The notes: generated from the letters alone by a model not told the origin. DNA of 64,000 nt from Candidatus Woesearchaeota archaeon (GCA_964608765.1 CAZSPD010000001.1:147223-211222), one strand, 5' to 3'. Positions 16,410 through 63,527 are shown, counted from the first letter of the stretch. Program-made: numbers and translations.

Positions 16410-17312
16410 ATGAAACACAACCTTAAAGTAACAATAATTATTCTTGCAATGTTTGTAGTTTCTCAGTTTATTGGATTATATGTTATTGATCACTATAATG
16501 TAAAAGAAAATACTTTACCCTATGGAATGGAGACTCCTCAGGCTGAAAAAGAATCTGACTTTTACACTTCTTTTCTTCCTTCAATTATAATTGCATTTAT
16601 CTTTGCAATAGTGCTCTTAATACTTTTAACTAGGTTTAATTTTAGTTTTATTTTAAAAATTTGGTTTTTTGCAGTAATACTAATAGCAATAGGAATTTTC
16701 TTTAACACATTTTTCCCTAATGAACAATATTTCCCTTATATTGCACTTGTTTTTGCACTTCCTTTAGCACTAATAAAAGTATTTAAAAGAAATTTTTTAA
16801 TCCACAATCTCACAGAATTAGTAGTTTATCCTTCAATTGCAGCAGTGTTTGTTCAACTTCTTAATTTCTGGACAGTTATAGTTTTATTATTCTTAATATC
16901 TATTTATGATATGTGGGCAGTTTGGCGCTCTGGAATAATGCAGAAAATGGCTAAATACCAAATAAATGAATTAAAGATATTTTCAGGATTTTTTGTACCT
17001 TATATCTCTAAAAAAACTAGAATGGAACTTAAGGAAGCTTCAAAATCAAAAGCAAAATCTAAGAATGTTAGAGTAGATATGGCTATTTTAGGTGGAGGAG
17101 ATGTTGTTTTCCCTATTATAACAGCAGGAGTAATGCTTAAACAATTTGGATTTATGCCTGCACTATTAGTCCTTATAGGAGCTACTTTAGGGTTAGGTTA
17201 TCTACTGTTTTTTGCTGAGAAAAAGAAATTTTACCCTGCAATGCCATTTATAACAGCAGGAATATTACTTGGAATTTTAATTTCTTGGATATCTGGAATA
17301 CTTGTTTTTTAG
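16410..17312 (+). CDS. Presenilin/signal-peptide-peptidase family (A22) intramembrane aspartyl protease
   Basis: 300 aa, polytopic. Contains YD (ISIYDMWAVW), GxGD (LGGGDVVFP) and PAL (MPALLV) motifs in the right order. Confidence 0.75.
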   Translation: MKHNLKVTIIILAMFVVSQFIGLYVIDHYNVKENTLPYGMETPQAEKESDFYTSFLPSIIIAFIFAIVLLILLTRFNFSFILKIWFFAVILIAIGIFFNTFFPNEQYFPYIALVFALPLALIKVFKRNFLIHNLTELVVYPSIAAVFVQLLNFWTVIVLLFLISIYDMWAVWRSGIMQKMAKYQINELKIFSGFFVPYISKKTRMELKEASKSKAKSKNVRVDMAILGGGDVVFPIITAGVMLKQFGFMPALLVLIGATLGLGYLLFFAEKKKFYPAMPFITAGILLGILISWISGILVF

Positions 17313-27371: not shown

Positions 27372-27427
27372 TATTATAATAATAAATTCTTTTTTATAAA
27401 TCTTTTTAATTTAAATAATTCTATTCT

Positions 27428-30400: not shown

Positions 30401-31012
30401 TAAACCAACACAAGTCTGCCCTCTTAATTGAGTACTTGTACAAGGAGACCCTGATGCTCCACAGTCACAATTCTCTCCATCTTCTACTATACTATTCCCA
30501 CAAACAGCAACAGAACTATCATTACAACATATTTTTGTTCCATAAGTACTACTAAATTGAGCTAAATGTGCATTTGTATTTGCACTTAAAGAAAGAACCT
30601 GAATAGGATAATTAGAAGGACAAGAAGTAGTTGTTACAGAAGTACACATAAATTTTCCAAAACACACATTTGTGGAGTAACCTGGTTCATTTTGGGTTTG
30701 AGCATGAGCATTTGTTGTTGCAGATAATTTTAAAATCTTATTAGTTGGATTAGAGGCAGGAGAACAAGTATGCATAGAAGCATTATCAGCAGCAGAGTAA
30801 TAAGTCATACCCACACAACATAAATAATAAGTGTATGTTCCTTGATTCCATAATGCTCCGTGAGCATTTGTTGAAGAAGATAATCTCATAACTCTATTAG
30901 CTTCAGGACAAGAAGTTGTAATTGAACAAGTTGTTGCTGAAATAAAACTTGATAATAATATTGTAAATGTAATTACTACAACAAAAAATATTAAACCTCT
31001 TTTGCTACTCAT
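27428..31012 (-). CDS. Giant Cys-rich repeat surface protein (1194 aa), C-terminally membrane anchored
   Basis: Signal peptide. Three LSxxTNAH repeats. Seven CGNGxxExGExC(D/E) repeats (Myxococcus cysteine-rich-repeat-like). Duplicated ALSCGINNDGCCP modules. C-terminal TM plus a Lys-rich tail. Confidence 0.8.
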   Translation of the reverse strand: MSSKRGLIFFVVVITFTILLSSFISATTCSITTSCPEANRVMRLSSSTNAHGALWNQGTYTYYLCCVGMTYYSAADNASMHTCSPASNPTNKILKLSATTNAHAQTQNEPGYSTNVCFGKFMCTSVTTTSCPSNYPIQVLSLSANTNAHLAQFSSTYGTKICCNDSSVAVCGNSIVEDGENCDCGASGSPCTSTQLRGQTCVGLGFNGGNLRCNPPGVSGCGYDTSQCCNNQCTPGATRCSGNNVQTCVSGSNGCYNWGTPTACLSGQTCSGGACVCVPTTCSALGRNCGTVSDGCGGTLNCGTCDDGNPCTTDICNSGTCANILINNCCTSNSQCNDNKVCTGPDTCNLATNTCSNPALSCGINNDGCCPLGCDIGDDNDCTICTRDSHCTNSPGQCNPGRCVSGSCTYPALSCGINNDGCCPQGCNAVNDNDCTATCGNGVRESGEQCDGTALGGATCASLMGAGYTLGAVTCTSGCTYNTSGCIPPCVLTSLSWNYSTPVGSPIVEGTPVLLNIAGTNCGGKTISFEIKEKDTIGADDDVIINPVPIIFPLSGNSAAGMWDAEWQSEGVPETDPPEYYFRSTVSGVTNSSSNSGVNDPQLLRVSRLASCGNGILEPGEQCDNGAALNGVPCTALYGDTCNYCSASCTSVTVQGGWCGDGVCNGPENCNNCESDCGPCPVTCEILDVYWSTLRILEGNNANMFVEATPHCNGRRINFEIWKDNGGGRDSRIENPGYLENINSYSSSNNMGIWRAEYEGNGEPAKYYFIANVVGLDISEKSDSIEVEKKWPGIVRCADYTDEYQCNHDGDLYYRVAENEPTCEKEPYYDSNMKCMIAPECGCTWNSASNICRATTIPKIDYCDGNPPVSNCGNGVVDAGEECEPPGEGNCGDDCNYIVPPSLTPVCGNGILERGEVCDGNELQLSDSECSHFDDFTSGTVNCYPQGHLLECTYNFSNCQGPLDHCGNGVVEYESNEECEPPGEGNCDTNCHFISPGSVCGNGIVELGETCDSNELQLSDSECSHFDEFTSGTVSCYPQGHQYQCTYNLENCRGDDNGGGTINYPNPGWCVYEPTTDDSCSEGVSQITVGIRGVMGWDPLNQFTEDTRSSLGLPDTAFFLDNTGVWRLGSIDKYNECITERSNLIYCPATVELPFFSVNHVAFAVALIGLIYIAYTLSRKDKKVVVSKKVKKRK

Positions 31013-31080
31013 TATAGTATATTATAGTAAATTCGCTTTTATAAATCTTTTTCTAATTAAGTAAATACTTTTTATTTTAA

Positions 31081-32616
31081 TTATTCTTCTTTTCTTTTTG
31101 TAATCACCTTTACTAAATCACTAACATAAGGTTGTTCAAATTCAGCAACTCCATTTACAACATTAAAATTTACTATATGTACCATACCATCCCATTCACC
31201 TTCTCTATTTCTCGGAGGAGCTCTTATCCAAATTTGGCAGTTTGATTGCATATATAAATGTCCAGGTTTGACATTTATAGAATCATATTGAGGTTCAATA
31301 AAACACCAATCTTCAAATTTAGTTAAATCATCTCCAGTTAAAATAGCATTCATAGAATGGGCAAATGTACCAAAATAATCTACAAAATAAACTGGTAACC
31401 CATATTTACCATTATCTTTTAATGTTCCTTTATGCCAGTAAATTGAATCTAAGTCAAATCCAGAATATCCAACTGCATCAGGATTCCCATGAAAATTTGT
31501 CATAAGTTGTCCAGCATATTCTGTACATACCCAAGTTGGATTTGGAGGAAAACTTGGAAGAATGTGAAAAATATCAGCCCAGTCTTCACGCAATTTTTCC
31601 CTAACATATGCATCTCTTTGTGCTTTTGTTTTAAGTAAATCATATGCTGCACCATTCTCATTAGTTGAAACAAATGGATTTATTGCATATTTATACTGAC
31701 TTTCAACAACTTTACCATTAAACATTACTTTCTCTAATTCACTTTTTGCATTCTTTAATTCAATTTCAATTTGATAATCTCCAAGTTTTTCCCAAAAAGT
31801 ATTTACATTTAAATTACTACCCTCTAATCTTGCTTTAGTTTTATCATCTAGTGATTTTACATAATTTACTACAACAGGATTATCTTCAGGATTTACATCA
31901 CTAGCTCTTCCACTTAAATCAAATACAAATTCAGATTCATCTTCTAAATTCTTATCAACACCACTTAAATCTAAAACAGGTTTATAATTAGGAATATTCA
32001 CACTTGTTCTTTTTTCTAAATCACCTGCTTTAAGCACAAATTCATAATTACCTTTAGTTATTCCATCAGGATTATATTTGAAAGTTTTACTATAATCAAA
32101 ACCTGTAAGTGAATTATCAATTATATCTTCCTTTAAGAACACCTCACCATCTTTATTTATTGTGAGTTCTGCTTTTGGAACTTTCTTGATTTTAGCAGAA
32201 TACTCTATCTCAACTGTATTAATTAAACTTGCATTTTGTTCAATACCCTCACTTAAAGTTAATTCAAGTTTACTCACTCCAGTTTTATCACTTTGATTTT
32301 TAGAATCAATAACTTCACCATAAACATCAAACTTACCCTCTTCCTTAAATTCTCTTAAAACATCAATAGGTTTGTCACTCTTAATACTCTCATTTCCTAT
32401 ATATAATGCATATTGCTTAATGTCTCCTACTCCATCTGGGTCTGTTCCCCTAACCTTCATTCTAATTTCAGAAGGAACTTCAACACTTAATGGGTTTACT
32501 TCAAGTATTGCTGTTGGAGGTTCATTTTCTGGCTCACATCCGTGCAAAGTACTCATTAGTGCTATTGGCACAGAATAGAGTATATTTTTCAATGTTTTAC
32601 TTAGTTTCCTAACCAT
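31081..32616 (-). CDS. Secreted (lipobox-like) PKD-domain protein with a C-terminal transglutaminase-like Cys-protease fold
   Basis: 511 aa. Signal ending LHGC. PKD-like AILEVNPLSVEVPSEIRMKVRGTDPDG. C-terminal Cys/His/Asp candidates WVCTEYAG, GLPVYFVDY, FAHSMNAIL and WCFIEPQYD. Confidence 0.55.
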   Translation of the reverse strand: MVRKLSKTLKNILYSVPIALMSTLHGCEPENEPPTAILEVNPLSVEVPSEIRMKVRGTDPDGVGDIKQYALYIGNESIKSDKPIDVLREFKEEGKFDVYGEVIDSKNQSDKTGVSKLELTLSEGIEQNASLINTVEIEYSAKIKKVPKAELTINKDGEVFLKEDIIDNSLTGFDYSKTFKYNPDGITKGNYEFVLKAGDLEKRTSVNIPNYKPVLDLSGVDKNLEDESEFVFDLSGRASDVNPEDNPVVVNYVKSLDDKTKARLEGSNLNVNTFWEKLGDYQIEIELKNAKSELEKVMFNGKVVESQYKYAINPFVSTNENGAAYDLLKTKAQRDAYVREKLREDWADIFHILPSFPPNPTWVCTEYAGQLMTNFHGNPDAVGYSGFDLDSIYWHKGTLKDNGKYGLPVYFVDYFGTFAHSMNAILTGDDLTKFEDWCFIEPQYDSINVKPGHLYMQSNCQIWIRAPPRNREGEWDGMVHIVNFNVVNGVAEFEQPYVSDLVKVITKRKEE

Positions 32617-32703
32617 ATTGTAACTAAATAGTGATAGTTTTTAAAGATTATTATGCTTCTTTTTGATAGGTGTATTTTCCTGCTTTTTTCACCCTTTAAC
32701 TAC

Positions 32704-32738
32704 AAACAAAAAATAAAAATGGCTCCATAAGGAGCCAT
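32704..32738 (-). terminator. Hairpin plus oligo-T terminator after the 34619-32763 operon
   Basis: Perfect 8-bp stem ATGGCTCC-NNNN-GGAGCCAT at 32719-32738, followed on the minus strand by TTTTATTTTTTGTTT. Lies 25 nt after the stop at 32763. Confidence 0.6.
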
Positions 32739-32762
32739 ATTAAAAATATTTCTTAATTTAAT

Positions 32763-33044
32763 TTACCACGGTCCATTTAATCCTAATGGATGGTCTTCAC
32801 CACATGGAGGGAATCTTTTGTATTTCTTGAAATATTGAAAAGACTTGATTAAATCGTCTAATTCTTCTTCATTGTCAAATCTAAGTACAACTTCATATCC
32901 TTCATCGTCTTCAATCCTGAAAAAAAGCTGTTTTGTTGAAGGGACAATACCTGCATCCCAAGATTCTACCTTTTTTATTTCACCATCTTTCATTAAATCT
33001 TCTTTTGTAGCTCCCTTTGTAAAATCTCTTATTTCAAGTTCCAT
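32763..33044 (-). CDS. Hypothetical acidic protein (93 aa)
   Basis: Last gene of a three-gene overlapping/abutting string. No recognisable motif. Confidence 0.5.
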   Translation of the reverse strand: MELEIRDFTKGATKEDLMKDGEIKKVESWDAGIVPSTKQLFFRIEDDEGYEVVLRFDNEEELDDLIKSFQYFKKYKRFPPCGEDHPLGLNGPW

Positions 33045-33045
33045 T

Positions 33046-33447
33046 TTATTTATCTTCGTCTAAATCAATCCCTAGTTTTTTTAAAATGGTAAAGTCCATT
33101 AGACTACGTGCTTCTTCACCTATTCTTTCGAAATTAAATTTATTCTTCCCAGATGTTCCATAATCTATATGGTCTTTATGGAAGTTGTCTGCAAAATCTA
33201 GTCTCATTATAGGAATGTTTGTTAGACTATCAGTTATTTTTATGCTCTTACCTGTTCTAATTAGATTAGTGCCGTCTCCAAATAAACCTAAATCCTCTCC
33301 TCTTACACATTTTCCATTTGGAAGCCAGATTTTTTCTCCGCTGTATAAAGCACTAGCACTTAAATATTCCAATCCCTCAATAGTGTAAACCTTTTCAAAC
33401 ACTTTTTGCCTTGATTGATACATGCCTAATGTTTGCTCAAGCTTCAT
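33046..33447 (-). CDS. Hypothetical protein (133 aa)
   Basis: Start overlaps the upstream gene by 4 nt (ATGA). No recognisable motif. Confidence 0.5.
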   Translation of the reverse strand: MKLEQTLGMYQSRQKVFEKVYTIEGLEYLSASALYSGEKIWLPNGKCVRGEDLGLFGDGTNLIRTGKSIKITDSLTNIPIMRLDFADNFHKDHIDYGTSGKNKFNFERIGEEARSLMDFTILKKLGIDLDEDK

Positions 33448-34619
33448 TTTTTAGAACCTCCTTTTAACTGCGGTGGTTTCTCGTCCTCCACTGACGCTTG
33501 CTTTAGTAAGTATAGCAATAAATCTTCTTTTGTAAAAATTCTTTTTCCTTCTGAGAGAGCTAATGCATTTGCTAGATAGGTTTGGTAATATGAAAAATAA
33601 AGATTTTTCAACCTCTCATCTTTTTCTTCTTCAGAGGCGAGCTTCTGCATAATAGACTTTTTGAAGTTATGCTTGATAGCTTTTTCTGTGATAGGCTGAT
33701 GTTTTAATTGTTCCTTTTTTTTAATTAGGTAATCTATATCTCCTAAAACAAGTTCTCCTTTCATAATGGAATGAGTAACCTGAACTTCAAATAATTCTAC
33801 TCTTTTTTCAAAATCTCTATCATCAAAGACTATCAAGTCTAATAAATCATTTTTTGCTGATTTTAAATAATAAGAAGATGCAAATAAATCAATATCTGAA
33901 AATGGTTTTTTACTGCCTGTCAATAAAATTAATTTTGAATTTTTAATAGAATCTTCTCCATATATGTCATATAATATTTTTTTAACTCTTTCAATACTGG
34001 TGTTTTTCGCCATTCCCTGAAAATACATTGTTGCCAAATTCCCATATTGATGTGAAAAATTAATAACAGTATCTATTGTTTCTTTATCTCTTCTTTCTAA
34101 AGAATCATATTTTTTTTCAAACTTATCCATTAATCCGTACTCTTTAGAAAGTAAATATTCTGTCCATATTGCAAACAATTCATATTTCCCTAAATTTTCT
34201 TTCTCAAATTCTTCAAGTTCCTTAAATGCCTTATTTTTTCTACGAAAATTTTGCAATTCTTTTAAATTAAATTTCTTTGAAGAAAACTCCTGTTTCTCTT
34301 CGTCTAATAGCTTTTTTTCTAAATCAACTAGCCTCATTCCAGATAAGGACTTTTCACAATATAACCCATGCCCAAAATATTCATGAAACAGGCTTAAAGG
34401 GCTTCCATCTTTTACTATTGCTGTTTGATTTCTTGGAAGATAAATTCCAGATGAATTAGGGTTTAACCCTATTTGAATTGTAAATCTATTCCACTCCTGG
34501 CTCGAAACTTGTTGCAAACTAGTTTGTTCTGGTTTATATCCTAACAAATTTTGATAATATTCATTAATTGAGGAACAGACTTGGGCTAAACCTAAAAAAG
34601 GATTGTCCATAATAAACAC
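33444..34619 (-). CDS. Fusion protein: HExxxH-motif N-domain plus minimal pol-beta nucleotidyltransferase plus helical C-domain
   Basis: 391 aa. LFHEYFGHGLY. NTase-like LLTGSKKPFSDIDLF...LDLIVFDD. Alpha-helical C-terminus. Confidence 0.55.
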   Translation of the reverse strand: MFIMDNPFLGLAQVCSSINEYYQNLLGYKPEQTSLQQVSSQEWNRFTIQIGLNPNSSGIYLPRNQTAIVKDGSPLSLFHEYFGHGLYCEKSLSGMRLVDLEKKLLDEEKQEFSSKKFNLKELQNFRRKNKAFKELEEFEKENLGKYELFAIWTEYLLSKEYGLMDKFEKKYDSLERRDKETIDTVINFSHQYGNLATMYFQGMAKNTSIERVKKILYDIYGEDSIKNSKLILLTGSKKPFSDIDLFASSYYLKSAKNDLLDLIVFDDRDFEKRVELFEVQVTHSIMKGELVLGDIDYLIKKKEQLKHQPITEKAIKHNFKKSIMQKLASEEEKDERLKNLYFSYYQTYLANALALSEGKRIFTKEDLLLYLLKQASVEDEKPPQLKGGSKK

Positions 34620-34760
34620 ACTTCTTTAAACTATTTAAATATTACTATTATATAGTTAATACACATTAATTACTGCATTATCTTTAGTTTAACACCCTCC
34701 AACTTCCTAAATTCATCTAATACTTCTCTATCCTTAAAACCCTTCGCCTTTTCTAAGAAT

Positions 34761-35714
34761 TCAAACAACTTTCTTTTTCCCTTTCTTTTTTGAGGACGTT
34801 TTTTTCTTTTTTAGATTCTTATTTAAATTTTCTTCTTTTCTTTTTTTTACAATAGAGATTAAAAAATAAATTGATAAAACAAGTGCAGCTGAAATAAGAA
34901 AAGAATAATCCCCAAATACTGGTAAAGGCGCTATTTCTATACACGCTCCACAATCTTCTGGACACTCTTTACAATTTTCATCAGGTTCATTACAAATATC
35001 ATCTCCGCATACTGAACTCATAATAGTAATTTCATTTGCACAATCATCAGAACAATACACACAACTACTTTCACCAGCAAGAACAACACACACAACACCA
35101 TTTAAACCACTATTATCACACACTTCATTAGGACTGTCAATATTACCATCTCCACAATACCCTCCTGTAACTACAACTTCTTCACACTCATCAGAACAAT
35201 ATGTACAAGAATCTTTATATGGAGCAAGACATGGAACCCCATTTAAACTTCCATCATCACACTCTTCATAAGGTGTTTGAATTATTCCGTCTCCACAAAT
35301 TGAACGAGGATTAACTTGAAGCATATCTTCAGGTTCTGTTGAACTTGTCATACCTCCCCAAGGTTCTCCTGTAACAGCTGCAACAAAATAATATTCTGGA
35401 GGGTCACTCTCCCCGGGTTCATTATCTTTATGATATTCAGCAGTCCAAATTGCATAAGAAGAAGAACCACTATATCTAATACCTGAGGGGTTATTAACAA
35501 GTGGTTGGTCAATTCCTCCAGCATCTCTCTCAAATATTTGAAATGTTATTTCAAATCCCTCTAAACCAGGTCCAATTACAATGAGTTTTACTGGATCCCC
35601 TTCTGTTACACTAGTAGTATTCCAATAAGCAGAATCTATATGGGGAGCAGGAACAAATTTCATTAGAAAGATTACTATCATACACCCAAAAAAAACCTTA
35701 TACACACTTTTCAT
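34761..35714 (-). CDS. Cys-rich surface protein, paralogous to modules of the 1194-aa protein
   Basis: 317 aa. Signal/TM N-terminus. SDPPEYYFVAAVTG beta-sandwich-like module. CGDGIIQTPYEECDDGSLNGVPC repeats. C-terminal TM plus a K-rich tail. Confidence 0.75.
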   Translation of the reverse strand: MKSVYKVFFGCMIVIFLMKFVPAPHIDSAYWNTTSVTEGDPVKLIVIGPGLEGFEITFQIFERDAGGIDQPLVNNPSGIRYSGSSSYAIWTAEYHKDNEPGESDPPEYYFVAAVTGEPWGGMTSSTEPEDMLQVNPRSICGDGIIQTPYEECDDGSLNGVPCLAPYKDSCTYCSDECEEVVVTGGYCGDGNIDSPNEVCDNSGLNGVVCVVLAGESSCVYCSDDCANEITIMSSVCGDDICNEPDENCKECPEDCGACIEIAPLPVFGDYSFLISAALVLSIYFLISIVKKRKEENLNKNLKKKKTSSKKKGKKKVV

Positions 35715-38041: not shown

Positions 38042-38497
38042 TTATTTAATACAAAATAATTTAATTTGTCTAGGAGAATAATGTGTTGCATTTGCAGATA
38101 TTATAACTGCTCTTGCATAAACTTCTTTATCGGAATCTCCTTCAAAAAAACACTGTCCATTTATTAAGCAGATTTTTGCATTGCATGTTATTCCTACAGG
38201 AGATAATTCTTCTATTCTTTCTTTTACAAGAGGGACTTCACTTTCAAACTTATCCCACTCAAGAGGCAAATCATCTAAATTTACACTTAAAATTTCTGCT
38301 CTTAACTCTTCATCTAATTGAATATCTCTTAACATAGAAATTTGCTTTTCTGTTATTTCTTCTTGAAACTTCATTTTTGGAGAAACATTGGAACTTGTAA
38401 CAACAAGCAAGACCCCTGCAAGAAGAACTATTGATATAAAAGCTTCAACTAACCTCATCCATCCTTTTTTGTTTTTAGTTAAATTTCTATTTACCAT
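38042..38497 (-). CDS. Type IV pilin-like protein (class III signal peptide)
   Basis: 151 aa. Basic N-terminus KNKKG followed by the hydrophobic helix WMRLVEAFISIVLLAGVLLVV. Confidence 0.55.
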   Translation of the reverse strand: MVNRNLTKNKKGWMRLVEAFISIVLLAGVLLVVTSSNVSPKMKFQEEITEKQISMLRDIQLDEELRAEILSVNLDDLPLEWDKFESEVPLVKERIEELSPVGITCNAKICLINGQCFFEGDSDKEVYARAVIISANATHYSPRQIKLFCIK

Positions 38498-39261
38498 ACT
38501 TTAATTTTTAAGTATCCTGAATTTATTTTTCCATCTGAATTAATATAATTTATTGGTTTGTCTCTAACATATATATTTGTAGAAATATCACTTTCTAAAT
38601 CAGGATGACTCTTTTCAATTAAATCCCCATTTGAAAGAATTATTCCATATGTAAATTCAGTTTTTCCAGGAACATTTAATTGGGTTTTTAATGCAGAGTA
38701 ATCCCCTTCATCTACACTTCTTTTTATTTTTTCTTGAAATACATATTTATCTGTTTTTACTAATCCTATTTCTTCATTCACATTAGTACAACTTCCACCT
38801 CCCCCAGACACTGGATTAAACTCTTCAGAATAATATATTTTGAAAAATGTATCTTGAGAACTTAATCCATTTATACTAATATAACCCCCGTCAATATAAA
38901 CCATTGAACTATCCAAGACATTTCCTCTAGAATCAATAATAACTATCCTATTTCCTATATCTAGACTATTTATAGAGTGTCCTGAAAGTGTTACACAACT
39001 TCCAGTAGGAGGAGATATAGCTACACTAATAACTTTAACTCCTGAAGAAAACTCCTCAATCAACCCATTTTCTAAATTACTAAACAAATCTTTTTTACCT
39101 TCTTGCTTTGTTATTGAATATTTTGAAGCTGCAAAAACAAAAACTACAAATGATATAAATATTACAAAAGATATTATCACTTCAACATGTGTTCCTTTAC
39201 GATTTTTTGGAAAAAGACTACAATTGGAAAAACTTTTGTTTTTAACTCTCTTATTCATCAA
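38491..39261 (-). CDS. Type IV pilin-like protein (class III signal peptide)
   Basis: 256 aa. PKNRKG followed by THVEVIISFVIFISFVVFVFA. Overlaps the downstream pilin-like gene by 7 nt. Confidence 0.55.
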   Translation of the reverse strand: MMNKRVKNKSFSNCSLFPKNRKGTHVEVIISFVIFISFVVFVFAASKYSITKQEGKKDLFSNLENGLIEEFSSGVKVISVAISPPTGSCVTLSGHSINSLDIGNRIVIIDSRGNVLDSSMVYIDGGYISINGLSSQDTFFKIYYSEEFNPVSGGGGSCTNVNEEIGLVKTDKYVFQEKIKRSVDEGDYSALKTQLNVPGKTEFTYGIILSNGDLIEKSHPDLESDISTNIYVRDKPINYINSDGKINSGYLKIKVW

Positions 39262-56252: not shown

Positions 56253-57425
56253 ATGAAAAAGAGGATAAAAGTAATTTTAATTTTTTTAGTTGCTTTTCAA
56301 TTTATATTATTTATAAATTTTGCAAAAGCTGACATAATTTCTATTAATTCTGGGGGAAGCACTAACTTAATAATTAATCCTGGAAAATATATTGAAGGAT
56401 TTTTTTCAGGTAAACCAACAGTTATTTCTGTATGTGGAAATGGGATATTAGAACCAAGTGAAGAGTGTGATGATGGAAATAATATAGATGGAGATGGATG
56501 TTCTGCACTATGTAAAATAGAGAAAGAGAGTGGTGGAGGCGGAGGAGGTGGAGGTGGAGGTGGAAGTGACTTTGATGACTCTTCTATTCCAGATCATTCA
56601 AATATAAGATTAGACCCTGTTGAAATACAAAAAACAATTCTTATTAACACAAACATAGAAGAGGAAATAATTGTATTAAATTTAGGTAGAGATATTTCTA
56701 TTAATCCTTTAGTTCATAGTAAAGGGTTTAGTAATGATTTAATGGTTAAGTTCTGGGATGAAGAACAAGGAATGTGGGTAGACACTCTTAATTTATATTT
56801 ATCTCCCAGAGAAGTTTATGAATTAAGAGCTAAATTCTTTGCACCAAATACCACAGGAGAATATACTGGAACAATTTTTGTTGGAGATAGAAAATTAAAA
56901 GTAACTCTAGATATACAAGAAAAACTGTTATTATTTGATTCAAATATCATTATCTTAAACAAAGATTATGTTGTTCCACAAGGAAATAAACTAAGAACTT
57001 CTGTAACTTTAATTCCTATGATGGATGAAGATAGAGTTGATGTAACATTAAATTACTTTATAAGAGATTATGATAACAAAGTATATTTAACAAGGAGTGA
57101 GACATTGCTTGTTGAAAATAGAGTTAACTTTAAGAGGAATTTTGATACCGGGTTACTTCCAGTAGGAGCCTATGTTTTAGACCTTGAATTAATTTACCCT
57201 AATGGAGTTGCTCCTTCAAGTGCTCATTTTGAAATTGTTGAAAATAAACAAAACACTTTCTTTGGAAAACTTGTGTTTTTCCTTGTTAATTCAATATTAG
57301 TAATACTTGCTCTTTTGATTATATTTATAGTATTAAGAGCAATTAGATTCTTAGGAGATAAGAAAAAAATCCAAGAACAAAAGAAGAAATTAGTAGATTA
57401 TTTTAAAGGATTAAGAAAGCGTTAG
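56253..57425 (+). CDS. Surface protein with a Myxococcus-type Cys-rich repeat, poly-Gly linker, beta-sandwich region and C-terminal TM
   Basis: 390 aa. Signal peptide. [27 protein letters not shown]. An 11-Gly run. C-terminal [24 protein letters not shown]. Confidence 0.75.
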
Positions 57426-58640: not shown

Positions 58641-59144
58641 ATGGCTGAGAAAGATAAGATATTTTCAAGTAAGATTAAGTATGATGGACTCATGGATTTT
58701 AAAGAATTTTATAAATTTTGTTACCAATGGCTTACAGAAGAAGCTGAATTAAGTGTCTCTGAAGCAAAATATGCCGAAAAAGTAACAGGAGATTCTAAGA
58801 ACATTGATATCTCGTGGAATGGTTCAAGAACAGTCACAGATTATTTTAAATTTCAAGTTTCTGTTTCATTTAAAATTATAAACCTAACCAACACAGAGAT
58901 AATTCAATCTGGAAAAAAGTTTAAAATGAATAAAGGGAGTGTGGAAGTTTCTGTTTCAGGAACTTTGGTTAGAGACTACGATGGGAAATTTGAAAAAACA
59001 TCTTCACAAAAATTCATGAGGTCAATATATGAAAAGTGGGTTATACCTTCAAGAATAGAGGAATACGAAGGAAAATTAATTGGAAACTGCAATGAATTTT
59101 TACTGCAAGCAAAAGCTTTCTTAGATTTAGAAGGAAGAATTTAA
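58641..59144 (+). CDS. Hypothetical protein (167 aa)
   Basis: ORF only. Confidence 0.45.
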   Translation: MAEKDKIFSSKIKYDGLMDFKEFYKFCYQWLTEEAELSVSEAKYAEKVTGDSKNIDISWNGSRTVTDYFKFQVSVSFKIINLTNTEIIQSGKKFKMNKGSVEVSVSGTLVRDYDGKFEKTSSQKFMRSIYEKWVIPSRIEEYEGKLIGNCNEFLLQAKAFLDLEGRI

Positions 59145-59257: not shown

Positions 59258-60649
59258 ATGAAAAAAGTCGTGACACCTTTGTTAATTATTTTATCTTCTA
59301 TATTAATTATTTCTTTTACATCTGCACTCGATCTTAAAATTGATAAATTAACTTCAAATGAAGTATGTATCTCAGGATTAAATCAACCTGCAACTTTTGA
59401 TTTAAAAATAACTAACTTAGGTTCTTCTGAAAATTTATTTTTTTATAGTTTTTTTGGGCAAGAGATTTACCCTAAAGAATTGTATCTTGAAGGGAAAAAA
59501 ACCCAAGACATTACACTTACAATTTATCCTTATGAAAATGAAAAGCCTGGACATCACACATTCGATTTATTTATCAGAAATAATCAAGGAGGAGAAGTTT
59601 CTCAGAGATTAACAATAAATCTTATTAAATTTGGAGAAGCATTTGAAATAGGTGCAGAGGAATTTGACCCAGAATCAAAATCACTAAATGTATACATACA
59701 CAATAAAGTTAATTTTAACTTTGAAGATGTAGTCGTTGTGTTTAGCTCACCATTCTTTGAATTTGAAAAAAAATTTACTTTAGGACCTAATCAAAGAAAT
59801 GATTTTGCAGTTACTTTAGACAAAGAGGATTTTAAAAAATTAATGGCAGGATATTATACTTTTAAAGCAGAAATCCAAGCAAAAGGATTAAAAGAAACAA
59901 TTGAAGGAACTTTAAAATTCTCTGAAAAAAACATTCTTACAACAAATAAAAAAACCTATGGATTTATAATTAACACAAATGCTATTGAAAAAACAAATGA
60001 AGGTAATGTTGTTACAAAGACAGAAACAGTCATAAAAAAGAATGTTGTTTCAAGACTATTTACTCACTTTAGTCCAGAACCTAATACAGTAGACAGAGAA
60101 GGATTTGTAGTGTATTATACGTGGTATAATAATTTAGCACCAGGAGAGGTTCTTAAAATAAATGTTAAAACAAATTGGATTCTTCCTTTTGCAATAATAT
60201 TCTTAATTATTTTAGTTGTAATAGTTGTTAAAAAAACATCTAATAGAAATATTGTACTTAAGAAAAAAGTTTCTTTTGTAAATGCTAAGGGAGGAGAATT
60301 TGCACTTAAAGTAATGATACTTGTTGAAGCTAAAAACTTCCTTGAAAGAGTTAGTATAATTGATAGATTACCTTATCTAACTAAAGTACATGAAAGATTT
60401 GGAGGAGAACGCCCATCAAGAGTAGATGAAAAGACTAAGAGAATGGAATGGAATTTTGAAAGAATGCATCCAGGAGAAAGAAGAGTGTTCTCATATATAA
60501 TTTATTCAAAAATAGGGGTATTAGGAAAATTTGCACTCCCTCCTGTAACAGCTGTTTATGAGAGAGAAGGTAAAGTAAAAGAAGCACAATCTAATCAAGC
60601 TTTTTTTATGCTTGAACCGAGAACACCTAAGGATTTAGAAGGACAGTAA
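59258..60649 (+). CDS. Surface protein with beta-sandwich (CARDB/DUF11-like) regions and an internal TM
   Basis: 463 aa. Signal peptide (LLIILSSILIISFTSA). TM ILPFAIIFLIILVVIVV at about residue 310. Confidence 0.55.
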   Translation: MKKVVTPLLIILSSILIISFTSALDLKIDKLTSNEVCISGLNQPATFDLKITNLGSSENLFFYSFFGQEIYPKELYLEGKKTQDITLTIYPYENEKPGHHTFDLFIRNNQGGEVSQRLTINLIKFGEAFEIGAEEFDPESKSLNVYIHNKVNFNFEDVVVVFSSPFFEFEKKFTLGPNQRNDFAVTLDKEDFKKLMAGYYTFKAEIQAKGLKETIEGTLKFSEKNILTTNKKTYGFIINTNAIEKTNEGNVVTKTETVIKKNVVSRLFTHFSPEPNTVDREGFVVYYTWYNNLAPGEVLKINVKTNWILPFAIIFLIILVVIVVKKTSNRNIVLKKKVSFVNAKGGEFALKVMILVEAKNFLERVSIIDRLPYLTKVHERFGGERPSRVDEKTKRMEWNFERMHPGERRVFSYIIYSKIGVLGKFALPPVTAVYEREGKVKEAQSNQAFFMLEPRTPKDLEGQ

Positions 60650-60685
60650 ATTATAAAAGTAACTCTTTCTTTTAATGAATATAAA

Positions 60686-61900
60686 ATGAGAGGTAGATTA
60701 AATTCTAAAGGAATGTCTGCAATTGTTGCAACTTTACTAATTATTTTACTAAGTATGTTCGCAATTGGAGCATTTTGGATTGTTATAAAAAACCTTTTAG
60801 TAAGTCAAACTGATATTTTAGTTACAAAGCAAGAATTTTTCTCAGAAAATGTAGGAATAAAATCAGTAAATATAGATGGGAGTAAAGTAAGTATTTCTTT
60901 AGGAAGGTCAAGTGGAGAATCTATAGATAAGAAAGATATTAAAGATATAGAGGTACAAGTTTATGTTCCTTCTGATATTGTGTCTGTAGTTGATTTGTCA
61001 GGAAGCATGGTTGTGTGCAGAGGAATAACCTCAACACAGTGTAGAAATTTAGGGGGAAGTTATAGTTCAGCAGGAGGATACTGCCACACTTTATCTGTAG
61101 ATAAAAAAGCTGCTTGTGAAAATTTAAATGGAGTCTGGAGAGATAGATTATCCCCTACAAGAGAGGCTAATAGGCAATTATTAGAAATGCTTTCTGAAGT
61201 AGAAGGCACAAGAATAGGGCTTGTAGCTTATAATGGTTCTATAATACCTCGTTTAAGCATAGATTTAACTGACAACATAGATGCATTAAATAATACAATT
61301 AATTCTTGGGAAAAAGCTATTGGAGGAACATGCATATGCTGTGGTATAAATGATGCAGTAAGAATGTTTAATAGTTTTTCTAGTCCAGCAACACCTAAAA
61401 AAATGATTGTTATGAGTGATGGAGAAGCAGAAACAAGATGTTCTAGTCAAAAGCCAGGGGATGCTTCTCAAGATGCAATTAATTCTGCTTGTACTGCAAG
61501 TTCTACTATGGCAAATTTAACTATTTATTCAATAGGGTTTGGAGAAGATGCAAATCATGAAACCCTAATAGAAATTGCAAACTGTGGAGATGGAGAAGAA
61601 TTTCAAGCATTAGAGGACATAGATTTAATTGAGATATACAGTCATGTTTCTCAGGAGATTATAACAAGATCAATTGTCTCTGATAAAATTAACTACATTT
61701 ATATACTCTTTTACACTCAAACTTCTAGTTATAGAGAAGTGATATATGAAATTCCTCCAAACTTAGGAATTAAAGCATATTCATTTAATTTAGCAGGAAA
61801 ATTAGAGGGAGAAATAATAAGAATTGAGGTTTACCCTGTTATTTTGCTTAAATCCGGAAAAGAAGAAATAGGTCCACTATTTGATTCATGGACACGCTAA
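60686..61900 (+). CDS. Archaeal pilin N-terminal domain fused to a von Willebrand factor A (vWA) domain
   Basis: 404 aa. KGMSAIVATLLIILLSMFAIGAFWIV (class III signal / Pilin_N-like). MIDAS elements VVDLSGSM, GGTCICCG and VMSDGEAE. Cys-rich insert after the DxSxS motif. Confidence 0.75.
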   Translation: MRGRLNSKGMSAIVATLLIILLSMFAIGAFWIVIKNLLVSQTDILVTKQEFFSENVGIKSVNIDGSKVSISLGRSSGESIDKKDIKDIEVQVYVPSDIVSVVDLSGSMVVCRGITSTQCRNLGGSYSSAGGYCHTLSVDKKAACENLNGVWRDRLSPTREANRQLLEMLSEVEGTRIGLVAYNGSIIPRLSIDLTDNIDALNNTINSWEKAIGGTCICCGINDAVRMFNSFSSPATPKKMIVMSDGEAETRCSSQKPGDASQDAINSACTASSTMANLTIYSIGFGEDANHETLIEIANCGDGEEFQALEDIDLIEIYSHVSQEIITRSIVSDKINYIYILFYTQTSSYREVIYEIPPNLGIKAYSFNLAGKLEGEIIRIEVYPVILLKSGKEEIGPLFDSWTR

Positions 61901-61915
61901 CAATAAAAGTATAAA

Positions 61916-63163
61916 ATGAAAAAGAGGGTTTCAAAAAAAAGAAGGGTAAAAATAAAAGATTCTAAAGCAATGTCTAATGTTATTGCAACTTTACTAATTA
62001 TTTTACTAGCTATTGTTTTAGTTATTATAATGTGGATAATAATAAAAGATTTAGTTGCTAAAGACACAGAAATTGCAGAGATTAAAACAGAATTTTTTGG
62101 TGAGAACATTCGTATAACTGCTTTAAAATTTGATGAAGATATTGTAAAAATATCTTTGCAAAAGATAGGAAGGAGAGACAATCCTAAAACAACTTTATGG
62201 AGTTCAGGAGAAATTAGTGGGAGTCTAGGTGTGGATATAATTTCAGTAGTTGATTTATCTGGGAGTATGATTTCTTGTAATAGCATTTCTGAACAATGTT
62301 GCAATGATGTTTTAGGAGCTACTAGTTATTCTTCAAGGAACTGCTATGGTTTGTCTGAAAATCATAAAGAGGATTGTGTTAATATTTGCAACGGTGTATG
62401 GGTGAACAGATTAACCCCTACAAAAGATTCTAACAGAGAGATACTTACAATTATTAATGAAATAGAAGATAGTAGAGTAGGAATTGTTGCTTACAATGCA
62501 GGAATTATTAGCTCTTCTGGAACAGGCTTAACATCTAATACTGATATATTAAATAGTGTAATTGATTCTTGGGAAGTTGGAGGAAATACTTGTATTTGTT
62601 GTGGAATTAATGAAGCACTAAGGATTTTAGAGGAACAATCTCCAGAAAATAAGCTTAAAAAAATAATTGTTATGAGTGATGGACAAGCAAACACAAGATG
62701 CCAAGAGCAAGGAACAGGAGACCCTTCACAAGATGCAATACGTTCTTCATGCGGCGCATATTCTACACTATCTAATTTAACTATTTACTCTGTTGGAGCA
62801 GGAGATAATGTAAATGAGAACACACTCAGGGAAATCGCAAACTGCGGAAAAGGTGTTTATTTTCCTGCACTAGATATTTCAGGACTAATAGAAGCATATA
62901 GAAACGTTATTGGAGAAATAAAAACAAACTACATTACATCATATAGTAGATTAGATTACATTTATATTGTATTTAAAAATGAGACTTCTTCTCACATTGA
63001 GAAAATTGCTAATATCCCTAGGAATTTAGTAATAAGAACATACTCTTTTGATTTAACTGATAAATTAGAAGGTAAAGTAGTAAGAATAGAAATTTATCCA
63101 GTTATTTTACTAAAATCAGGGAAAGAAGAAATAGGGCCTTTATTTGATTTCTGGGATGCTTAA
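61916..63163 (+). CDS. Second pilin-N plus vWA fusion protein (tandem paralogue)
   Basis: 415 aa. KAMSNVIATLLIILLAIVLVIIMWII, VVDLSGSM, GNTCICCG and VMSDGQAN. The C-terminus YPVILLKSGKEEIGPLFD is identical to the upstream paralogue. Confidence 0.75.
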   Translation: MKKRVSKKRRVKIKDSKAMSNVIATLLIILLAIVLVIIMWIIIKDLVAKDTEIAEIKTEFFGENIRITALKFDEDIVKISLQKIGRRDNPKTTLWSSGEISGSLGVDIISVVDLSGSMISCNSISEQCCNDVLGATSYSSRNCYGLSENHKEDCVNICNGVWVNRLTPTKDSNREILTIINEIEDSRVGIVAYNAGIISSSGTGLTSNTDILNSVIDSWEVGGNTCICCGINEALRILEEQSPENKLKKIIVMSDGQANTRCQEQGTGDPSQDAIRSSCGAYSTLSNLTIYSVGAGDNVNENTLREIANCGKGVYFPALDISGLIEAYRNVIGEIKTNYITSYSRLDYIYIVFKNETSSHIEKIANIPRNLVIRTYSFDLTDKLEGKVVRIEIYPVILLKSGKEEIGPLFDFWDA

Positions 63164-63194: not shown

Positions 63195-63353
63195 TCCCTC
63201 CACCAAGATTCGAACTTGGGATCTTCCGGGTACTGCTTTTTATTTACAGATTCCTTCAGGAATGGCTTATCGTGCTTCATCCTAATCCAAAATGGAATGT
63301 CTGCACTAGACATAATCTACAGCCAGACGCTCTAACCACTGAGCTATGGAGGG
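63195..63353 (-). tRNA. tRNA-Tyr(GUA) with an intron of about 86 nt in the anticodon loop
   Basis: Hand-folded. C1:G72 acceptor CCCTCCA/TGGAGGG (archaeal Tyr identity pair). D arm GCTC-AGTGGTTA-GAGC. Anticodon stem TCTGG/CCGGA with CTGTAG. T arm CCAAG-TTCGAAT-CTTGG. Discriminator A followed by TTTT. Confidence 0.8.
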
Positions 63354-63527
63354 ATTATTGGTTTTGTTTTTCCCACTCTCTCTGCGGTTTACCATTAGAT
63401 GTTTAGTTCTAGGTTTTAACCACTGAGCTATGGAGGGATTATTGGTTTTGTTTTTCCCACTCTCTCTGCGGTTTACCATTAGATGTTTAGTTCTAGGTTT
63501 TAACCACTGAGCTATGGAGGGATTATT
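63333..63527 (-). repeat. Perfect 84-bp tandem repeat (2.3 copies) duplicating tRNA-Tyr nt 1-21 plus upstream sequence
   Basis: Identical units at 63334-63417 and 63418-63501, with a partial unit at 63502-63527. Each carries AATAAT + CCCTCCATAGCTCAGTGGTTA on the minus strand. Confidence 0.95.

What the first reader, a model, noticed from the sequence alone, without database searches (positions are those of the whole stretch)
60686..63163. Two tandem genes fuse an archaeal type IV pilin N-terminus to a vWA (MIDAS) adhesin domain carrying a Cys-rich insert
Seen in sequence:
- Both proteins start with a basic stretch followed by K(G/A)MS(A/N)(I/V)(V/I)ATLLIILL, which looks like a class III signal peptide / Pilin_N.
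- After a spacer of about 90 aa, each has a vWA fold with MIDAS residues (VVDLSGSM, GGT/GNT in G(G/N)TCICCG, VMSDG(E/Q)A).
- A Cys-containing segment of about 45 aa is inserted right after the DxSxS motif.
- The 17-aa segment YPVILLKSGKEEIGPLFD near the C-terminus is identical in both, although the rest has diverged.
- The neighbouring genes encode further surface proteins (59258-60649 and 56253-57425).

Established knowledge: vWA modules act as tip adhesins on bacterial pili, and a bimodular vWA type IV pilin is known in Streptococcus sanguinis.

Inference: these are modular adhesive pilins, plausibly used for attachment to host cells by an episymbiotic archaeon. The conserved C-terminus may be an assembly or partner-binding motif.
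Basis: partly seen in the sequence, partly recalled or inferred. Interest (0 to 1): 0.65.

Follow-up and report, generated by a model that had tools for sequence, protein, structure and literature searches.

The report
Archaeal pilins with a nested vWA adhesin domain
Two neighbouring genes of a small-genome (DPANN-type) archaeon encode pilus-subunit proteins whose outer domain is split open by a metal-dependent "sticky" vWA domain. This is an archaeal counterpart, built differently, of adhesive pilins known from bacteria, and it is a plausible but untested tool for attaching to other cells.

Summary
ORFs A (60686-61900, 404 aa) and B (61916-63163, 415 aa) are 50% identical paralogues. Each has a class-III-type signal ([KR][GA]|MS plus a hydrophobic helix), a vWA domain with a complete MIDAS (A: D103/S105/S107/T215/D245) and a 44-45-aa Cys-rich insert right after DxSxS.

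The main correction concerns architecture. The protein is not a pilin N-terminus fused to vWA. It is a complete small archaeal pilin (helix plus Ig-like sandwich) with the vWA nested between strands 2 and 3. With the vWA columns removed, the family profile aligns end to end with a family of ~150-aa stand-alone pilins from related archaea (hhalign 99.8%, E 2e-27). The "spacer" is the first beta-hairpin. The identical C-terminal segment (18 aa, not 17) is the pilin's last hairpin, and it is kept by selection (9 of 18 codons differ synonymously).

The family has about 130 clusters at 90% identity, all labelled as DPANN archaea, and occurs in 1-5 tandem copies. No pilus ATPase, platform protein or prepilin peptidase lies in the window. 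Related genomes do have them, and two loci place the gene beside them.

Processing, assembly into pili and adhesion to a host are all inferred. I found no prior description. Verdict: new variant of a known kind, moderate interest.

The parts
60686..61900 (+). Gene A, 404-aa vWA-nested pilin
   Evidence: ORF; VWA Pfam E 4.5e-13; small-pilin HMM E 4.8e-19 in two collinear pieces, aa 6-107 and aa 326-397; AF2 model pLDDT 88
60686..60712 (+). A: predicted class III signal peptide MRGRLNSKG (cleavage predicted after G9)
   Evidence: Basic n-region plus K-G|M-S; motif conserved across the family. Cleavage itself is inferred.
60713..60838 (+). A: pilin alpha-1 helix (aa 10-51), hydrophobic N-half
   Evidence: AF2 helix 8-51; 17 of 25 residues identical to the small-pilin consensus GLSTIVATLLIILLTLVAVGIIWVV (read); hhalign
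60839..60916 (+). A: pilin beta-strands 1-2 (aa 52-77), ending in the ...SLGRSSG motif shared with small pilins
   Evidence: AF2 strands 54-64 and 67-76; aligned with small-pilin strands 52-60 and 65-72
60917..60973 (+). A: variable linker (aa 78-96) into the vWA
   Evidence: pLDDT below 50 for residues 78-89; 5% A-versus-B identity
60974..61660 (+). A: vWA domain (aa 97-325) with MIDAS D103, S105, S107, T215, D245
   Evidence: Foldseek hits to vWA structures, E down to 1e-13
61010..61141 (+). A: Cys-rich insert (aa 109-152; C111, C119, C133, C144) in the beta1-alpha1 loop just after DxSxS
   Evidence: Deletion restores a full VWA profile alignment; four Cys nearly invariant; about 15 family members lack the insert
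61661..61897 (+). A: C-terminal half of the split pilin Ig-like domain (aa 326-404)
   Evidence: hhalign of this part alone against small-pilin columns 86-155: probability 94%, E 1.4e-7; strand order matches the small pilin
61832..61885 (+). A: 18-aa segment YPVILLKSGKEEIGPLFD (aa 383-400), the last beta-hairpin of the pilin fold
   Evidence: Aligns with IAPILISDSGKEFIGDIED of L007_367 and with the SVAPIFILESGKEVIGDV region of the small pilins
61916..63163 (+). Gene B, 415-aa paralogue, 15 nt downstream of A
   Evidence: ORF; VWA E 1.2e-8; small-pilin HMM E 1.6e-14, aa 14-84 and aa 347-407
61916..61969 (+). B: predicted class III signal peptide MKKRVSKKRRVKIKDSKA (cleavage predicted after A18)
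62234..62920 (+). B: vWA domain (aa 107-335) with MIDAS D113, S115, S117, T225, D255
62270..62404 (+). B: Cys-rich insert (aa 119-163; six Cys)
62921..63160 (+). B: C-terminal half of the split pilin domain (aa 336-415), including the identical 18-aa segment at 63095-63148

Best explanation
A and B are archaeal type IV pilin-family proteins in which a vWA/MIDAS adhesin module is nested inside the pilin's Ig-like outer domain.

Shown here:
- Each protein has a class-III-type signal with a conserved [KR]-[GA]|[LM]-S site.
- Each has a hydrophobic alpha-1 helix about 50-70% identical to the near-invariant helix of a ~150-aa stand-alone pilin family from related archaea.
- Two pilin beta-strands are followed by a vWA domain with a complete MIDAS and a Cys-rich insert next to DxSxS, and then by the remaining six pilin strands.

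Inferred:
- The precursor is inserted in the membrane and a PibD/FlaK-type prepilin peptidase removes the 9-aa (A) or 18-aa (B) leader.
- A T2SSE ATPase / T2SSF platform machinery encoded elsewhere in the genome packs the alpha-1 helix into the core of a filament built mainly of the small pilin.
- Because the Ig-like domain stays intact, the vWA projects outward, at the tip or along the shaft. Its MIDAS-bound Mg2+/Mn2+ binds an acidic residue of a protein ligand.
- The disulfide-stabilised insert shapes the binding face.
- Tandem paralogues (1-5 copies at this locus in relatives) diversify specificity, possibly for host-cell surfaces.
For: vWA and MIDAS:
- Pfam hits above threshold.
- MIDAS residues invariant in 60 homologues.
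- Full profile alignment once the insert is removed.
- Foldseek matches to vWA adhesins, including S. sanguinis PilB and Mfa5.

Pilin identity:
- Cleavage-site logo.
- TIGR02537 matches 29 of 60 family members (best E 5.7e-8), and UpsA matches 15 of 60.
- A and B are the only window ORFs that hit the small-pilin HMM (E 4.8e-19 and 1.6e-14), each in two collinear pieces flanking the vWA.
- The family profile minus its vWA columns aligns with the whole small pilin (152 columns, probability 99.8%, E 1.9e-27). The C-terminal 79 aa alone give probability 94%, E 1.4e-7.
- BLASTP of vWA-deleted A against the pilin domain of L007_367 gives E 2.4e-15.
- The order of secondary-structure elements in the AF2 models of A and of the small pilin matches.
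- The small pilin's best PDB match, by sequence and by fold, is the Pyrobaculum calidifontis archaeal type IV pilus subunit 8fk7.
- The small pilins pass the TIGR02537 curated cut-off.

Machinery context:
- In L014 a family member sits beside T2SSE/T2SSF and a 181-aa pilin with the same N-terminus. In L031 it abuts KaiC, two T2SSF genes and T2SSE.
- Four metagenome-assembled genomes carry both this family and a full pilus operon (Pfam).
- The window itself holds two pilin-like genes homologous to L014 operon genes.
- A small pilin (P0184) is on the same contig as a vWA-pilin.

Selection and copy number:
- The 18-aa segment has 9 synonymous codon differences.
- Copy number is 1-5 at the same locus.
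Against: - Neither A nor B reaches any curated pilin profile directly (Pilin_N, Class_IIIsignal, TIGR02537), even as isolated N-termini. Their pilin identity rests on homology to the small-pilin family.
- No prepilin peptidase, T2SSE or T2SSF lies in the 64-kb window, and the rest of the genome could not be reached.
- Only 2 of 23 family loci are next to pilus machinery.
- The structural match of the small pilin to a solved archaeal pilin is modest (E 1e-3, TM 0.50-0.55).
- There is no experimental evidence for cleavage, polymerisation, metal binding or any ligand.
Confidence: 0.65

Rival explanations
1. Membrane-retained surface adhesin or short pseudopilus (bindosome-like). The class III signal is used only for membrane insertion and perhaps cleavage. 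The protein stays anchored by its alpha-1 helix, or forms only short stubs, and displays the vWA at the cell surface rather than on long pili.
For: Archaeal class III signals are also carried by non-filament proteins such as the Sulfolobus bindosome sugar-binding proteins (established knowledge; Szabo et al. 2007 is only listed in the references of PMC10191384). A few family members weakly hit bindosome BasA/BasB models. Most family loci (21 of 23) are not next to pilus machinery. The subunit is bulky, about 43 kDa.
Against: The whole pilin outer domain, not just the signal, is conserved and interrupted cleanly. That is hard to explain if polymerisation contacts were irrelevant. The alpha-1 helix closely tracks the near-invariant helix of the small pilins. 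L014 and L031 place the gene beside T2SSE/T2SSF.
Confidence: 0.2
2. A and B are themselves the major subunits of a separate filament (a heteropolymer of A and B) whose whole surface is coated with vWA domains, rather than minor subunits of a small-pilin filament.
For: The nested topology keeps the Ig-like domain intact, so the subunit could in principle pack along a shaft. Outer-domain size is very variable among archaeal pilins and archaellins (PMC10334743). Tandem pairs are common. No small pilin lies in the window.
Against: Small pilins with the same helix are abundant and stand-alone in related genomes. One shares a contig with a vWA-pilin. The alpha-1 helix of the vWA family is less conserved than that of the small pilins, as expected for minor subunits. 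The bacterial precedent PilB is a minor pilin (PMC8179133).
Confidence: 0.1
3. An ordinary N-terminally anchored vWA membrane protein of the BatA/BatB kind, or an ArnB-like regulator, with no relation to pili.
For: Weak NCBIfam hits to BatA/BatB vWA models. Foldseek hits to ArnB and BatB structures.
Against: The Bat scores are 15-18 bits against cut-offs of 350-380 and cover only the vWA. No MoxR or DUF58 genes were found nearby. The conserved cleavage motif and the full-length homology to pilins are not expected for a Sec anchor. Ten to twelve Cys plus a hydrophobic N-terminus argue for an extracellular protein, unlike cytoplasmic ArnB.
Confidence: 0.05

Closest known systems
PilB minor pilin of Streptococcus sanguinis type IV pili (PDB 7b7p/7ba2; PMC8179133)
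   Same: A type IV pilin-family protein carrying a vWA module with a complete MIDAS, with extra structure flanking the MIDAS face, proposed or shown to make the pilus adhesive. It is among the Foldseek hits of the A model (E 1e-10 to 3e-10).
   Different: - PilB is bacterial, with the bacterial N-terminal pilin signature domain (InterPro IPR012902, the domain used for that paper's survey).
- Its vWA is appended to the C-terminal end of a complete pilin module through a short loop. Here the vWA is nested between strands 2 and 3 of an archaeal Ig-like pilin domain.
- Sequence identity is 12-14%.
- PilB's metal binding and ligands were shown experimentally. Nothing here has been.
Stand-alone ~150-aa archaeal pilins named 'archaellin/type IV pilin N-terminal domain-containing protein' (TIGR02537; alignment A2)
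   Same: Same signal and cleavage motif, near-identical alpha-1 helix, same beta-strand order and same C-terminal hairpin motif.
   Different: They have no vWA and are about 250 aa shorter. Their N-terminal helix is far more conserved (16 invariant positions). They sit at a different conserved locus, after a class-I tRNA synthetase gene (PF00749).
~840-aa vWA proteins encoded inside archaeal type IV pilus operons of related genomes ('type B', e.g. L039:8900-11407)
   Same: They carry the same vWA cassette: 36% identity to A residues 97-326, including a Cys-rich insert after DxSxS and the TCICCGIN and VMSDG motifs. They also start with a class-III-like N-terminus.
   Different: The N-terminus differs (KKGxFFSxDALIAL), they are twice the size, and the flanks are unrelated. 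They are always embedded in an operon with T2SSE, two T2SSF genes, KaiC and small Q/E-type pilins.
GspK pseudopilin of bacterial type II secretion
   Same: [quoted passage not shown]
   Different: [quoted passage not shown] GspK belongs to a bacterial secretion pseudopilus, and no vWA or MIDAS is described for it in that paper.
[quoted passage not shown]
   Same: Best sequence and structure match of the small-pilin scaffold: a long N-terminal helix plus an Ig-like outer domain.
   Different: The relationship is distant (16% identity, TM about 0.5). It has no inserted module and comes from a different archaeal phylum.

Membership tests
vWA domain with MIDAS | Sequence match to vWA profiles above the curated threshold | tested here: met
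   PF00092 gives 50.2 bits for A and 35.8 bits for B against a cut-off of 23.8. With the insert deleted, A gives 66 bits over profile positions 1-166 of 174. All 60 aligned homologues match.
vWA domain with MIDAS | Complete MIDAS: DxSxS ... T ... D | tested here: met
   A D103/S105/S107/T215/D245; B D113/S115/S117/T225/D255. These columns are invariant in alignment A1.
vWA domain with MIDAS | vWA alpha/beta fold | tested here: met
   AF2 model pLDDT 88. There are 195 Foldseek PDB matches at E<=1e-3, and the 50 best listed include integrin I domains, ANTXR, BatB, PilB and Mfa5.
vWA domain with MIDAS | Divalent-metal binding and metal-dependent ligand binding | not testable with these tools
   Needs recombinant protein, for example ThermoFluor with Mg2+/Mn2+ and a D245A control.
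Archaeal type IV pilin (class III signal peptide proteins) | Short basic leader, [KR]-[GA] cleavage site, then about 20 or more hydrophobic residues | tested here: met
   Read directly from the sequence. Conserved in 100 of 120 homologues: -2 R/K 88%, -1 G 91% / A 9%, +1 L/M/V/I, +2 S 84%.
Archaeal type IV pilin (class III signal peptide proteins) | Match to curated pilin N-terminal profiles (TIGR02537, PF07790, PF04021) | tested here: inconclusive
   A and B give no hit, whole or as isolated N-termini. Among 60 family members, 29 hit TIGR02537 (best E 5.7e-8), 15 hit UpsA and 12 hit Pilin_N. The homologous small pilins pass the TIGR02537 cut-off.
Archaeal type IV pilin (class III signal peptide proteins) | Homology to pilin-sized proteins over the whole pilin domain | tested here: met
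   hmmsearch gives E 4.8e-19 for A and 1.6e-14 for B. hhalign of the vWA-deleted profile against the small pilins gives 152 columns at E 1.9e-27, and the C-terminal part alone gives E 1.4e-7.
Archaeal type IV pilin (class III signal peptide proteins) | Fold: long N-terminal helix plus an Ig-like beta-sandwich, as in solved archaeal pili | tested here: met
   The scaffold (small pilin) model has pLDDT 85. Its top PDB match is the archaeal type IV pilus subunit 8fk7 over 146 columns, though weakly (E 1e-3, TM 0.50/0.55). The A model has helix 8-51 and the same strand order around the vWA.
Archaeal type IV pilin (class III signal peptide proteins) | Prepilin peptidase (PibD/FlaK/EppA) in the genome and actual cleavage | not testable with these tools
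   None was found in the window. The only polytopic GxGD protease there is of the SPP/presenilin type. The rest of the 215-kb contig could not be fetched.
Archaeal type IV pilin (class III signal peptide proteins) | Assembly ATPase (T2SSE) and platform protein (T2SSF) available | tested here: inconclusive
   Absent from the window. Present beside family members in L014 and L031, and elsewhere in four genomes that carry the family. The window has two pilin-like genes homologous to L014 operon genes.
Bacterial modular vWA pilin (PilB type) | vWA module appended after a complete pilin module through a short linker | tested here: not met
   Here 79-80 residues of the pilin domain follow the vWA. 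The PilB topology is taken from PMC8179133.
Bacterial modular vWA pilin (PilB type) | Bacterial class III signal (InterPro IPR012902 domain; G|F..E-type motif with Glu at +5, the motif detail being from established knowledge) | tested here: not met
   The mature N-termini MSAIVATLL and MSNVIATLL have no Glu at +5 (read from the sequence). No bacterial pilin N-terminal family appears among the Pfam or NCBIfam hits listed at E<=1.
BatA/BatB-type membrane vWA proteins | Profile match at the curated cut-off and a MoxR/DUF58 operon context | tested here: not met
   15-18 bits against cut-offs of 350-380. No MoxR or DUF58 family appeared in the Pfam scans of window proteins.

The most novel reading that the evidence does not exclude
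These archaea use one conserved small-pilin scaffold as a display platform for interchangeable adhesin cassettes. The vWA is nested in the Ig-like domain, as here. In relatives, Cys-rich DUF4215-type repeats or other modules are appended instead. The tandemly expanding vWA-pilin array (1-5 copies at a fixed locus next to L7Ae-S28e) would then be the host-recognition and host-range determinant of these episymbionts. The nested topology would let adhesive subunits be incorporated along the filament shaft rather than only at the tip.
Probability: 0.2. Interest if true: 0.75.

Novelty: new variant of a known kind. Interest (0 to 1): 0.55.

Why it matters
How DPANN archaea physically recognise and hold on to host cells is largely unknown. 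Pili are repeatedly invoked, but no adhesive subunit has been pinned down.

This family gives a concrete and testable candidate. It is a pilin with a canonical metal-dependent protein-binding domain. It is widespread in Pacearchaeota/Woesearchaeota-type genomes and varies in copy number. It shares its vWA cassette with a larger protein encoded inside the pilus operons of related genomes.

It also extends the 'modular pilin' idea, which was established and surveyed only in bacteria (PMC8179133), to archaea. Here the solution is topologically different: the module is inserted into the Ig-like outer domain instead of being grafted onto the end. Current annotation ('VWA domain-containing protein', 'Mg-chelatase subunit ChlD', 'hypothetical') hides the pilin nature of these proteins.

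Tried and rejected
- **Direct pilin-profile hits on A and B.** Pfam and NCBIfam give none, whole or as isolated N-termini. Pilin identity had to be established through homologues.
- **Extending beyond the window to look for PibD or T2SSE/T2SSF.** A is not on record in the contig index, and B is found only on a 1.7-kb contig.
- **Gene conversion as the cause of the identical 18-aa segment.** Rejected: 9 of 18 codons differ synonymously, and the codon identity (0.50) is no higher than the gene-wide value (0.57).
- **The 167-aa and 463-aa upstream genes as dedicated partners.** Rejected as a specific claim: the 463-aa family has more than 1,300 clusters at 54-81% identity, about ten times more than the vWA-pilins. 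There are no PDB or Pfam leads.
- **TCICC cysteines pairing with the insert cysteines.** Not supported: about a dozen members without the insert keep TCICCG.
- **The SPP/presenilin-type protease at 16410-17312 as the prepilin peptidase.** Not supported: it matches PF06550 (SPP), and no prepilin-peptidase family appeared among its Pfam hits.
- **BatA/BatB or ArnB membership.** Rejected (see the membership table).
- **Position of the Cys insert relative to the MIDAS, and disulfide geometry.** Could not be measured because model coordinates are not exposed by the tools.
- **Literature searches for an archaeal vWA pilin.** Nothing found. Makarova et al. 2016 mention vWA only as ArnB-type regulators and bacterial TadG.
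Full report
**1. Observation**

ORFs A (60686-61900, 404 aa) and B (61916-63163, 415 aa) lie head to tail on the + strand, 15 nt apart. They are 50% identical over their full length (E 8e-122). The window is archaeal: it encodes exosome subunits, proteasome alpha and beta subunits, FttA, RtcB, Kae1, L7Ae and S28e. Its G+C content is 25-36%. The homologues of A that carry an organism label are named Pacearchaeota, Woesearchaeota, Nanoarchaeota, Diapherotrites and the like, with one partial protein labelled Thaumarchaeota. Episymbiosis itself is taken from the literature on the group and is not shown here.

**2. vWA and MIDAS**

- PF00092 matches both proteins above its gathering score.
- The match starts at profile position 22-31 because a 44-45-aa Cys-containing segment follows DxSxS. 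Removing A residues 109-150 gives a full alignment (profile positions 1-166 of 174, 66 bits, E 6e-18). The segment is therefore a true insertion in the beta1-alpha1 loop.
- D103, S105, S107, T215 and D245 are invariant in an alignment of 60 homologues.
- C111, C119, C133 and C144 in the insert are nearly invariant, as are C216, C218 and C219 (the TCICCG motif after the MIDAS Thr) and C252.
- About 15 family members lack the insert and still keep TCICCG.
- The AF2 model of A is confident (pLDDT 88). Its PDB neighbours are vWA proteins, including the pilus adhesins PilB (S. sanguinis) and Mfa5.

**3. The N-terminus**

- A and B fit a FlaFind-like pattern. In the window only they and one 1194-aa ORF do.
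- Across 120 homologues the site is conserved: R/K at -2 (88%), G/A at -1 (91%/9%), L/M/V/I at +1 and S at +2 (84%).
- Curated pilin profiles do not reach A or B directly.
- At family level, 29 of 60 members hit TIGR02537 (best E 5.7e-8), 15 hit UpsA and 12 hit Pilin_N.

**4. The key result: the vWA is nested in a complete pilin**

In the 78 related loci fetched from reference genomes, the same N-terminal module occurs in two other settings:
- on pilin-sized ORFs of 148-181 aa;
- on proteins whose first ~145 aa are followed by other modules, for example Cys-rich DUF4215-like repeats.

A with its vWA removed (residues 1-96 joined to 326-404) aligns collinearly with the pilin domain of L007_367 (E 2.4e-15). 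The segment A 379-403 (IEVYPVILLKSGKEEIGPLFDSWT) matches that protein's last hairpin (IAIAPILISDSGKEFIGDIEDEYTF).

A search with that pilin domain found 102 clusters of mostly 145-165-aa proteins. NCBI names some of them 'archaellin/type IV pilin N-terminal domain-containing protein'. Their N-terminus is almost invariant (GLSTIVATLLIILLTLVAVGIIW).

Profile-profile comparisons with the small-pilin alignment:

| Query | Result |
|---|---|
| Full vWA family | 106 columns, probability 99.4%, E 3e-21 |
| vWA family with vWA columns removed | 152 columns covering pilin positions 1-156 of 162, probability 99.8%, E 1.9e-27 |
| C-terminal 79 residues alone | Pilin columns 86-155, probability 94%, E 1.4e-7 |

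An HMM of the small pilins hits only A (E 4.8e-19) and B (E 1.6e-14) among the window's ORFs, each in two collinear pieces around the vWA.

The AF2 model of a small pilin (pLDDT 85) has a helix at 8-47 and eight strands. The A model has a helix at 8-51, two strands, the vWA, and then six strands in the same order.

The small pilin's best PDB match, by sequence and by fold, is the Pyrobaculum calidifontis archaeal type IV pilus subunit 8fk7, though the match is modest (TM 0.50/0.55, E 1e-3). Solved archaeal pilins all have Ig-like outer domains of variable size (PMC10334743).

- The 'spacer' is alpha-1 plus the first hairpin plus a 19-20-aa variable linker (5% A-versus-B identity, pLDDT below 50).
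- The 'conserved C-terminal motif' is the last hairpin of the pilin fold.

The identical segment is 18 aa long, and 9 of its 18 codons differ synonymously. It is therefore kept by purifying selection and not by gene conversion.

**5. Distribution and context**

- The family has about 130 clusters at 90% identity. An exhaustive profile search finds 370 clusters (at 50% identity) at E<=1e-30. Roughly the top hundred are full-length proteins of this architecture.
- In 12-13 of 23 loci the gene follows a conserved run: DUF4215 protein, L7Ae, S28e, a 167-aa protein, a ~460-aa protein.
- Copy number at that spot ranges from one to five.
- The ~460-aa neighbour belongs to a much larger family (more than 1,300 clusters) that is more conserved. 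The linkage is therefore not evidence of a dedicated partnership.
- A second family of ~840 aa carries the same vWA cassette (36% identity, including a Cys insert and TCICCGIN). Its N-terminus and flanks are different. It always lies inside a type IV pilus operon with T2SSE, two T2SSF genes, a KaiC-like ATPase and several small pilins. This matches the 'system 1' layout reported for DPANN (preprint 10.64898/2026.04.22.720090).
- Four metagenome-assembled genomes carry both families.
- In L014 the short-type gene lies beside T2SSE/T2SSF and a 181-aa pilin with the same helix. In L031 it abuts the operon.
- The small pilins are stand-alone genes after a class-I tRNA synthetase gene (PF00749). 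One is on the same contig as a vWA-pilin.

**6. What is missing**

The window has no T2SSE, T2SSF or prepilin peptidase, and I could not fetch the rest of the contig. It does contain two overlapping pilin-like genes (38042-38497 and 38491-39258, minus strand). These are homologous to the two genes directly downstream of T2SSF in L014 (E 2e-29 and 1e-16). That is indirect evidence that the genome has such a system.

**7. Mechanism**

Shown: the architecture, the MIDAS, the cleavage motif, and the homology to pilins.

Inferred: leader removal by a class III peptidase; extraction of alpha-1 into a filament core made mainly of the small pilin; outward display of the vWA; metal-dependent binding of a protein ligand; a role of the disulfide-rich insert in shaping the binding face; and diversification of specificity by tandem paralogues. 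Consistent with the last point, A-versus-B identity is 39% in the insert, 53% in the vWA core, 92% around DxSxS and 61% in the C-terminal pilin half.

Rivals are a membrane-retained or pseudopilus-like adhesin, a self-polymerising vWA-coated filament, and an unrelated membrane vWA protein. They are weighed in the Rival explanations section.

**8. Comparison and novelty**

The nearest characterised analogue is S. sanguinis PilB. There a vWA module is grafted onto the C-terminal end of a bacterial pilin and mediates adhesion. The survey of modular pilins in that paper was restricted to the bacterial N-terminal signature (PMC8179133). GspK is the known case of a domain inserted into the pilin sheet (same paper).

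I found no paper describing an archaeal vWA pilin. I therefore file this as a new variant of a known kind: an archaeal modular pilin that works like PilB but is not a member of its family. It fails two of PilB's defining features: the topology is nested rather than appended, and the signal is archaeal rather than bacterial.

Noticed in passing
window 38042-38497 (-) and 38491-39258 (-): Two overlapping genes (151 aa and 255 aa) with class-III-like N-termini (KNKKGWMRLVEAFISIVLL and NRKGTHVEVIISFVIFISF). They are homologous (E 2e-29 and 1e-16) to the two genes directly downstream of T2SSF/T2SSE in locus L014. Neither has a Pfam or NCBIfam hit. They are probably minor pilin-like components of a pilus system whose ATPase lies outside the window.
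   Followed up: partly
window 63195-63353 (-) and 63333-63527: A tRNA gene with an 89-nt insertion next to the anticodon, probably an intron (Rfam 52 bits). ARAGORN missed it. Its 5' exon and the upstream sequence are repeated as a perfect 84-nt tandem repeat (2.3 copies), which also produces a spurious 104-aa ORF with repeated peptides. This could be a real duplication of the tRNA 5' half or an assembly artefact.
   Followed up: partly
window 58641-59144 (+) and 59258-60649 (+): A 167-aa protein with no TM-like segment and a 463-aa protein (signal-like N-terminus, beta-rich ectodomain, TM-like segment at about residue 301-330, 130-aa C-terminal domain). They form a conserved pair next to L7Ae-S28e in many related genomes. 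The 463-aa family has more than 1,300 clusters at 54-81% identity, and every source name shown is 'hypothetical protein'. No Pfam or PDB lead was found.
   Followed up: partly
window 25902-35714 (-): A block of five large ORFs (489, 1194, 511, 391 and 317 aa) without any Pfam hit. Three of them (489, 1194 and 317 aa) have a signal-like N-terminus and a C-terminal TM-like segment, so they are likely further surface proteins. The 1194-aa ORF also fits the loose class-III pattern (SSKRG|LIFFVVVITF).
   Followed up: no
window 16410-17312 (+): A polytopic GxGD aspartyl protease of the signal-peptide-peptidase/presenilin type (PF06550, E 8.5e-14). It is the only intramembrane aspartyl protease in the window, and no prepilin-peptidase family is among its Pfam hits.
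   Followed up: partly
L085 9136-15746 (ENA contig_93518): At the same syntenic position (DUF4215 protein, L7Ae, S28e, 167-aa gene) a related genome carries five tandem vWA-pilin paralogues (408, 408, 412 and 413 aa, plus one split gene). The ~460-aa neighbour there is fragmented into three ORFs.
   Followed up: partly
L039:8900-11407 and 46 other loci (type B): Proteins of about 840 aa with a different class-III-like N-terminus (KKGxFFSxDALIAL) carry the same Cys-insert vWA cassette. They sit in conserved pilus operons with T2SSE, two T2SSF genes, KaiC and four to six small pilin-like genes. They are likely the operon's own large adhesive subunit, and I did not find them described in the papers searched.
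   Followed up: partly
L007:4427-5530, L005:15561-17018, L006:4028-6736, L083:19276-20262: Other modular proteins built on the same small-pilin scaffold: the pilin domain followed by Cys-rich DUF4215-like repeats (367 and 485 aa), by a large C-terminal region (902 aa), or by a second pilin domain (328 aa).
   Followed up: partly
window 60650-60659: ATTATAAAAG lies 27-36 nt upstream of the ATG of A and could be a TATA box for a leaderless transcript. The gap between A and B is only 15 nt, so B is probably co-transcribed with A. This was read from the sequence only.
   Followed up: no
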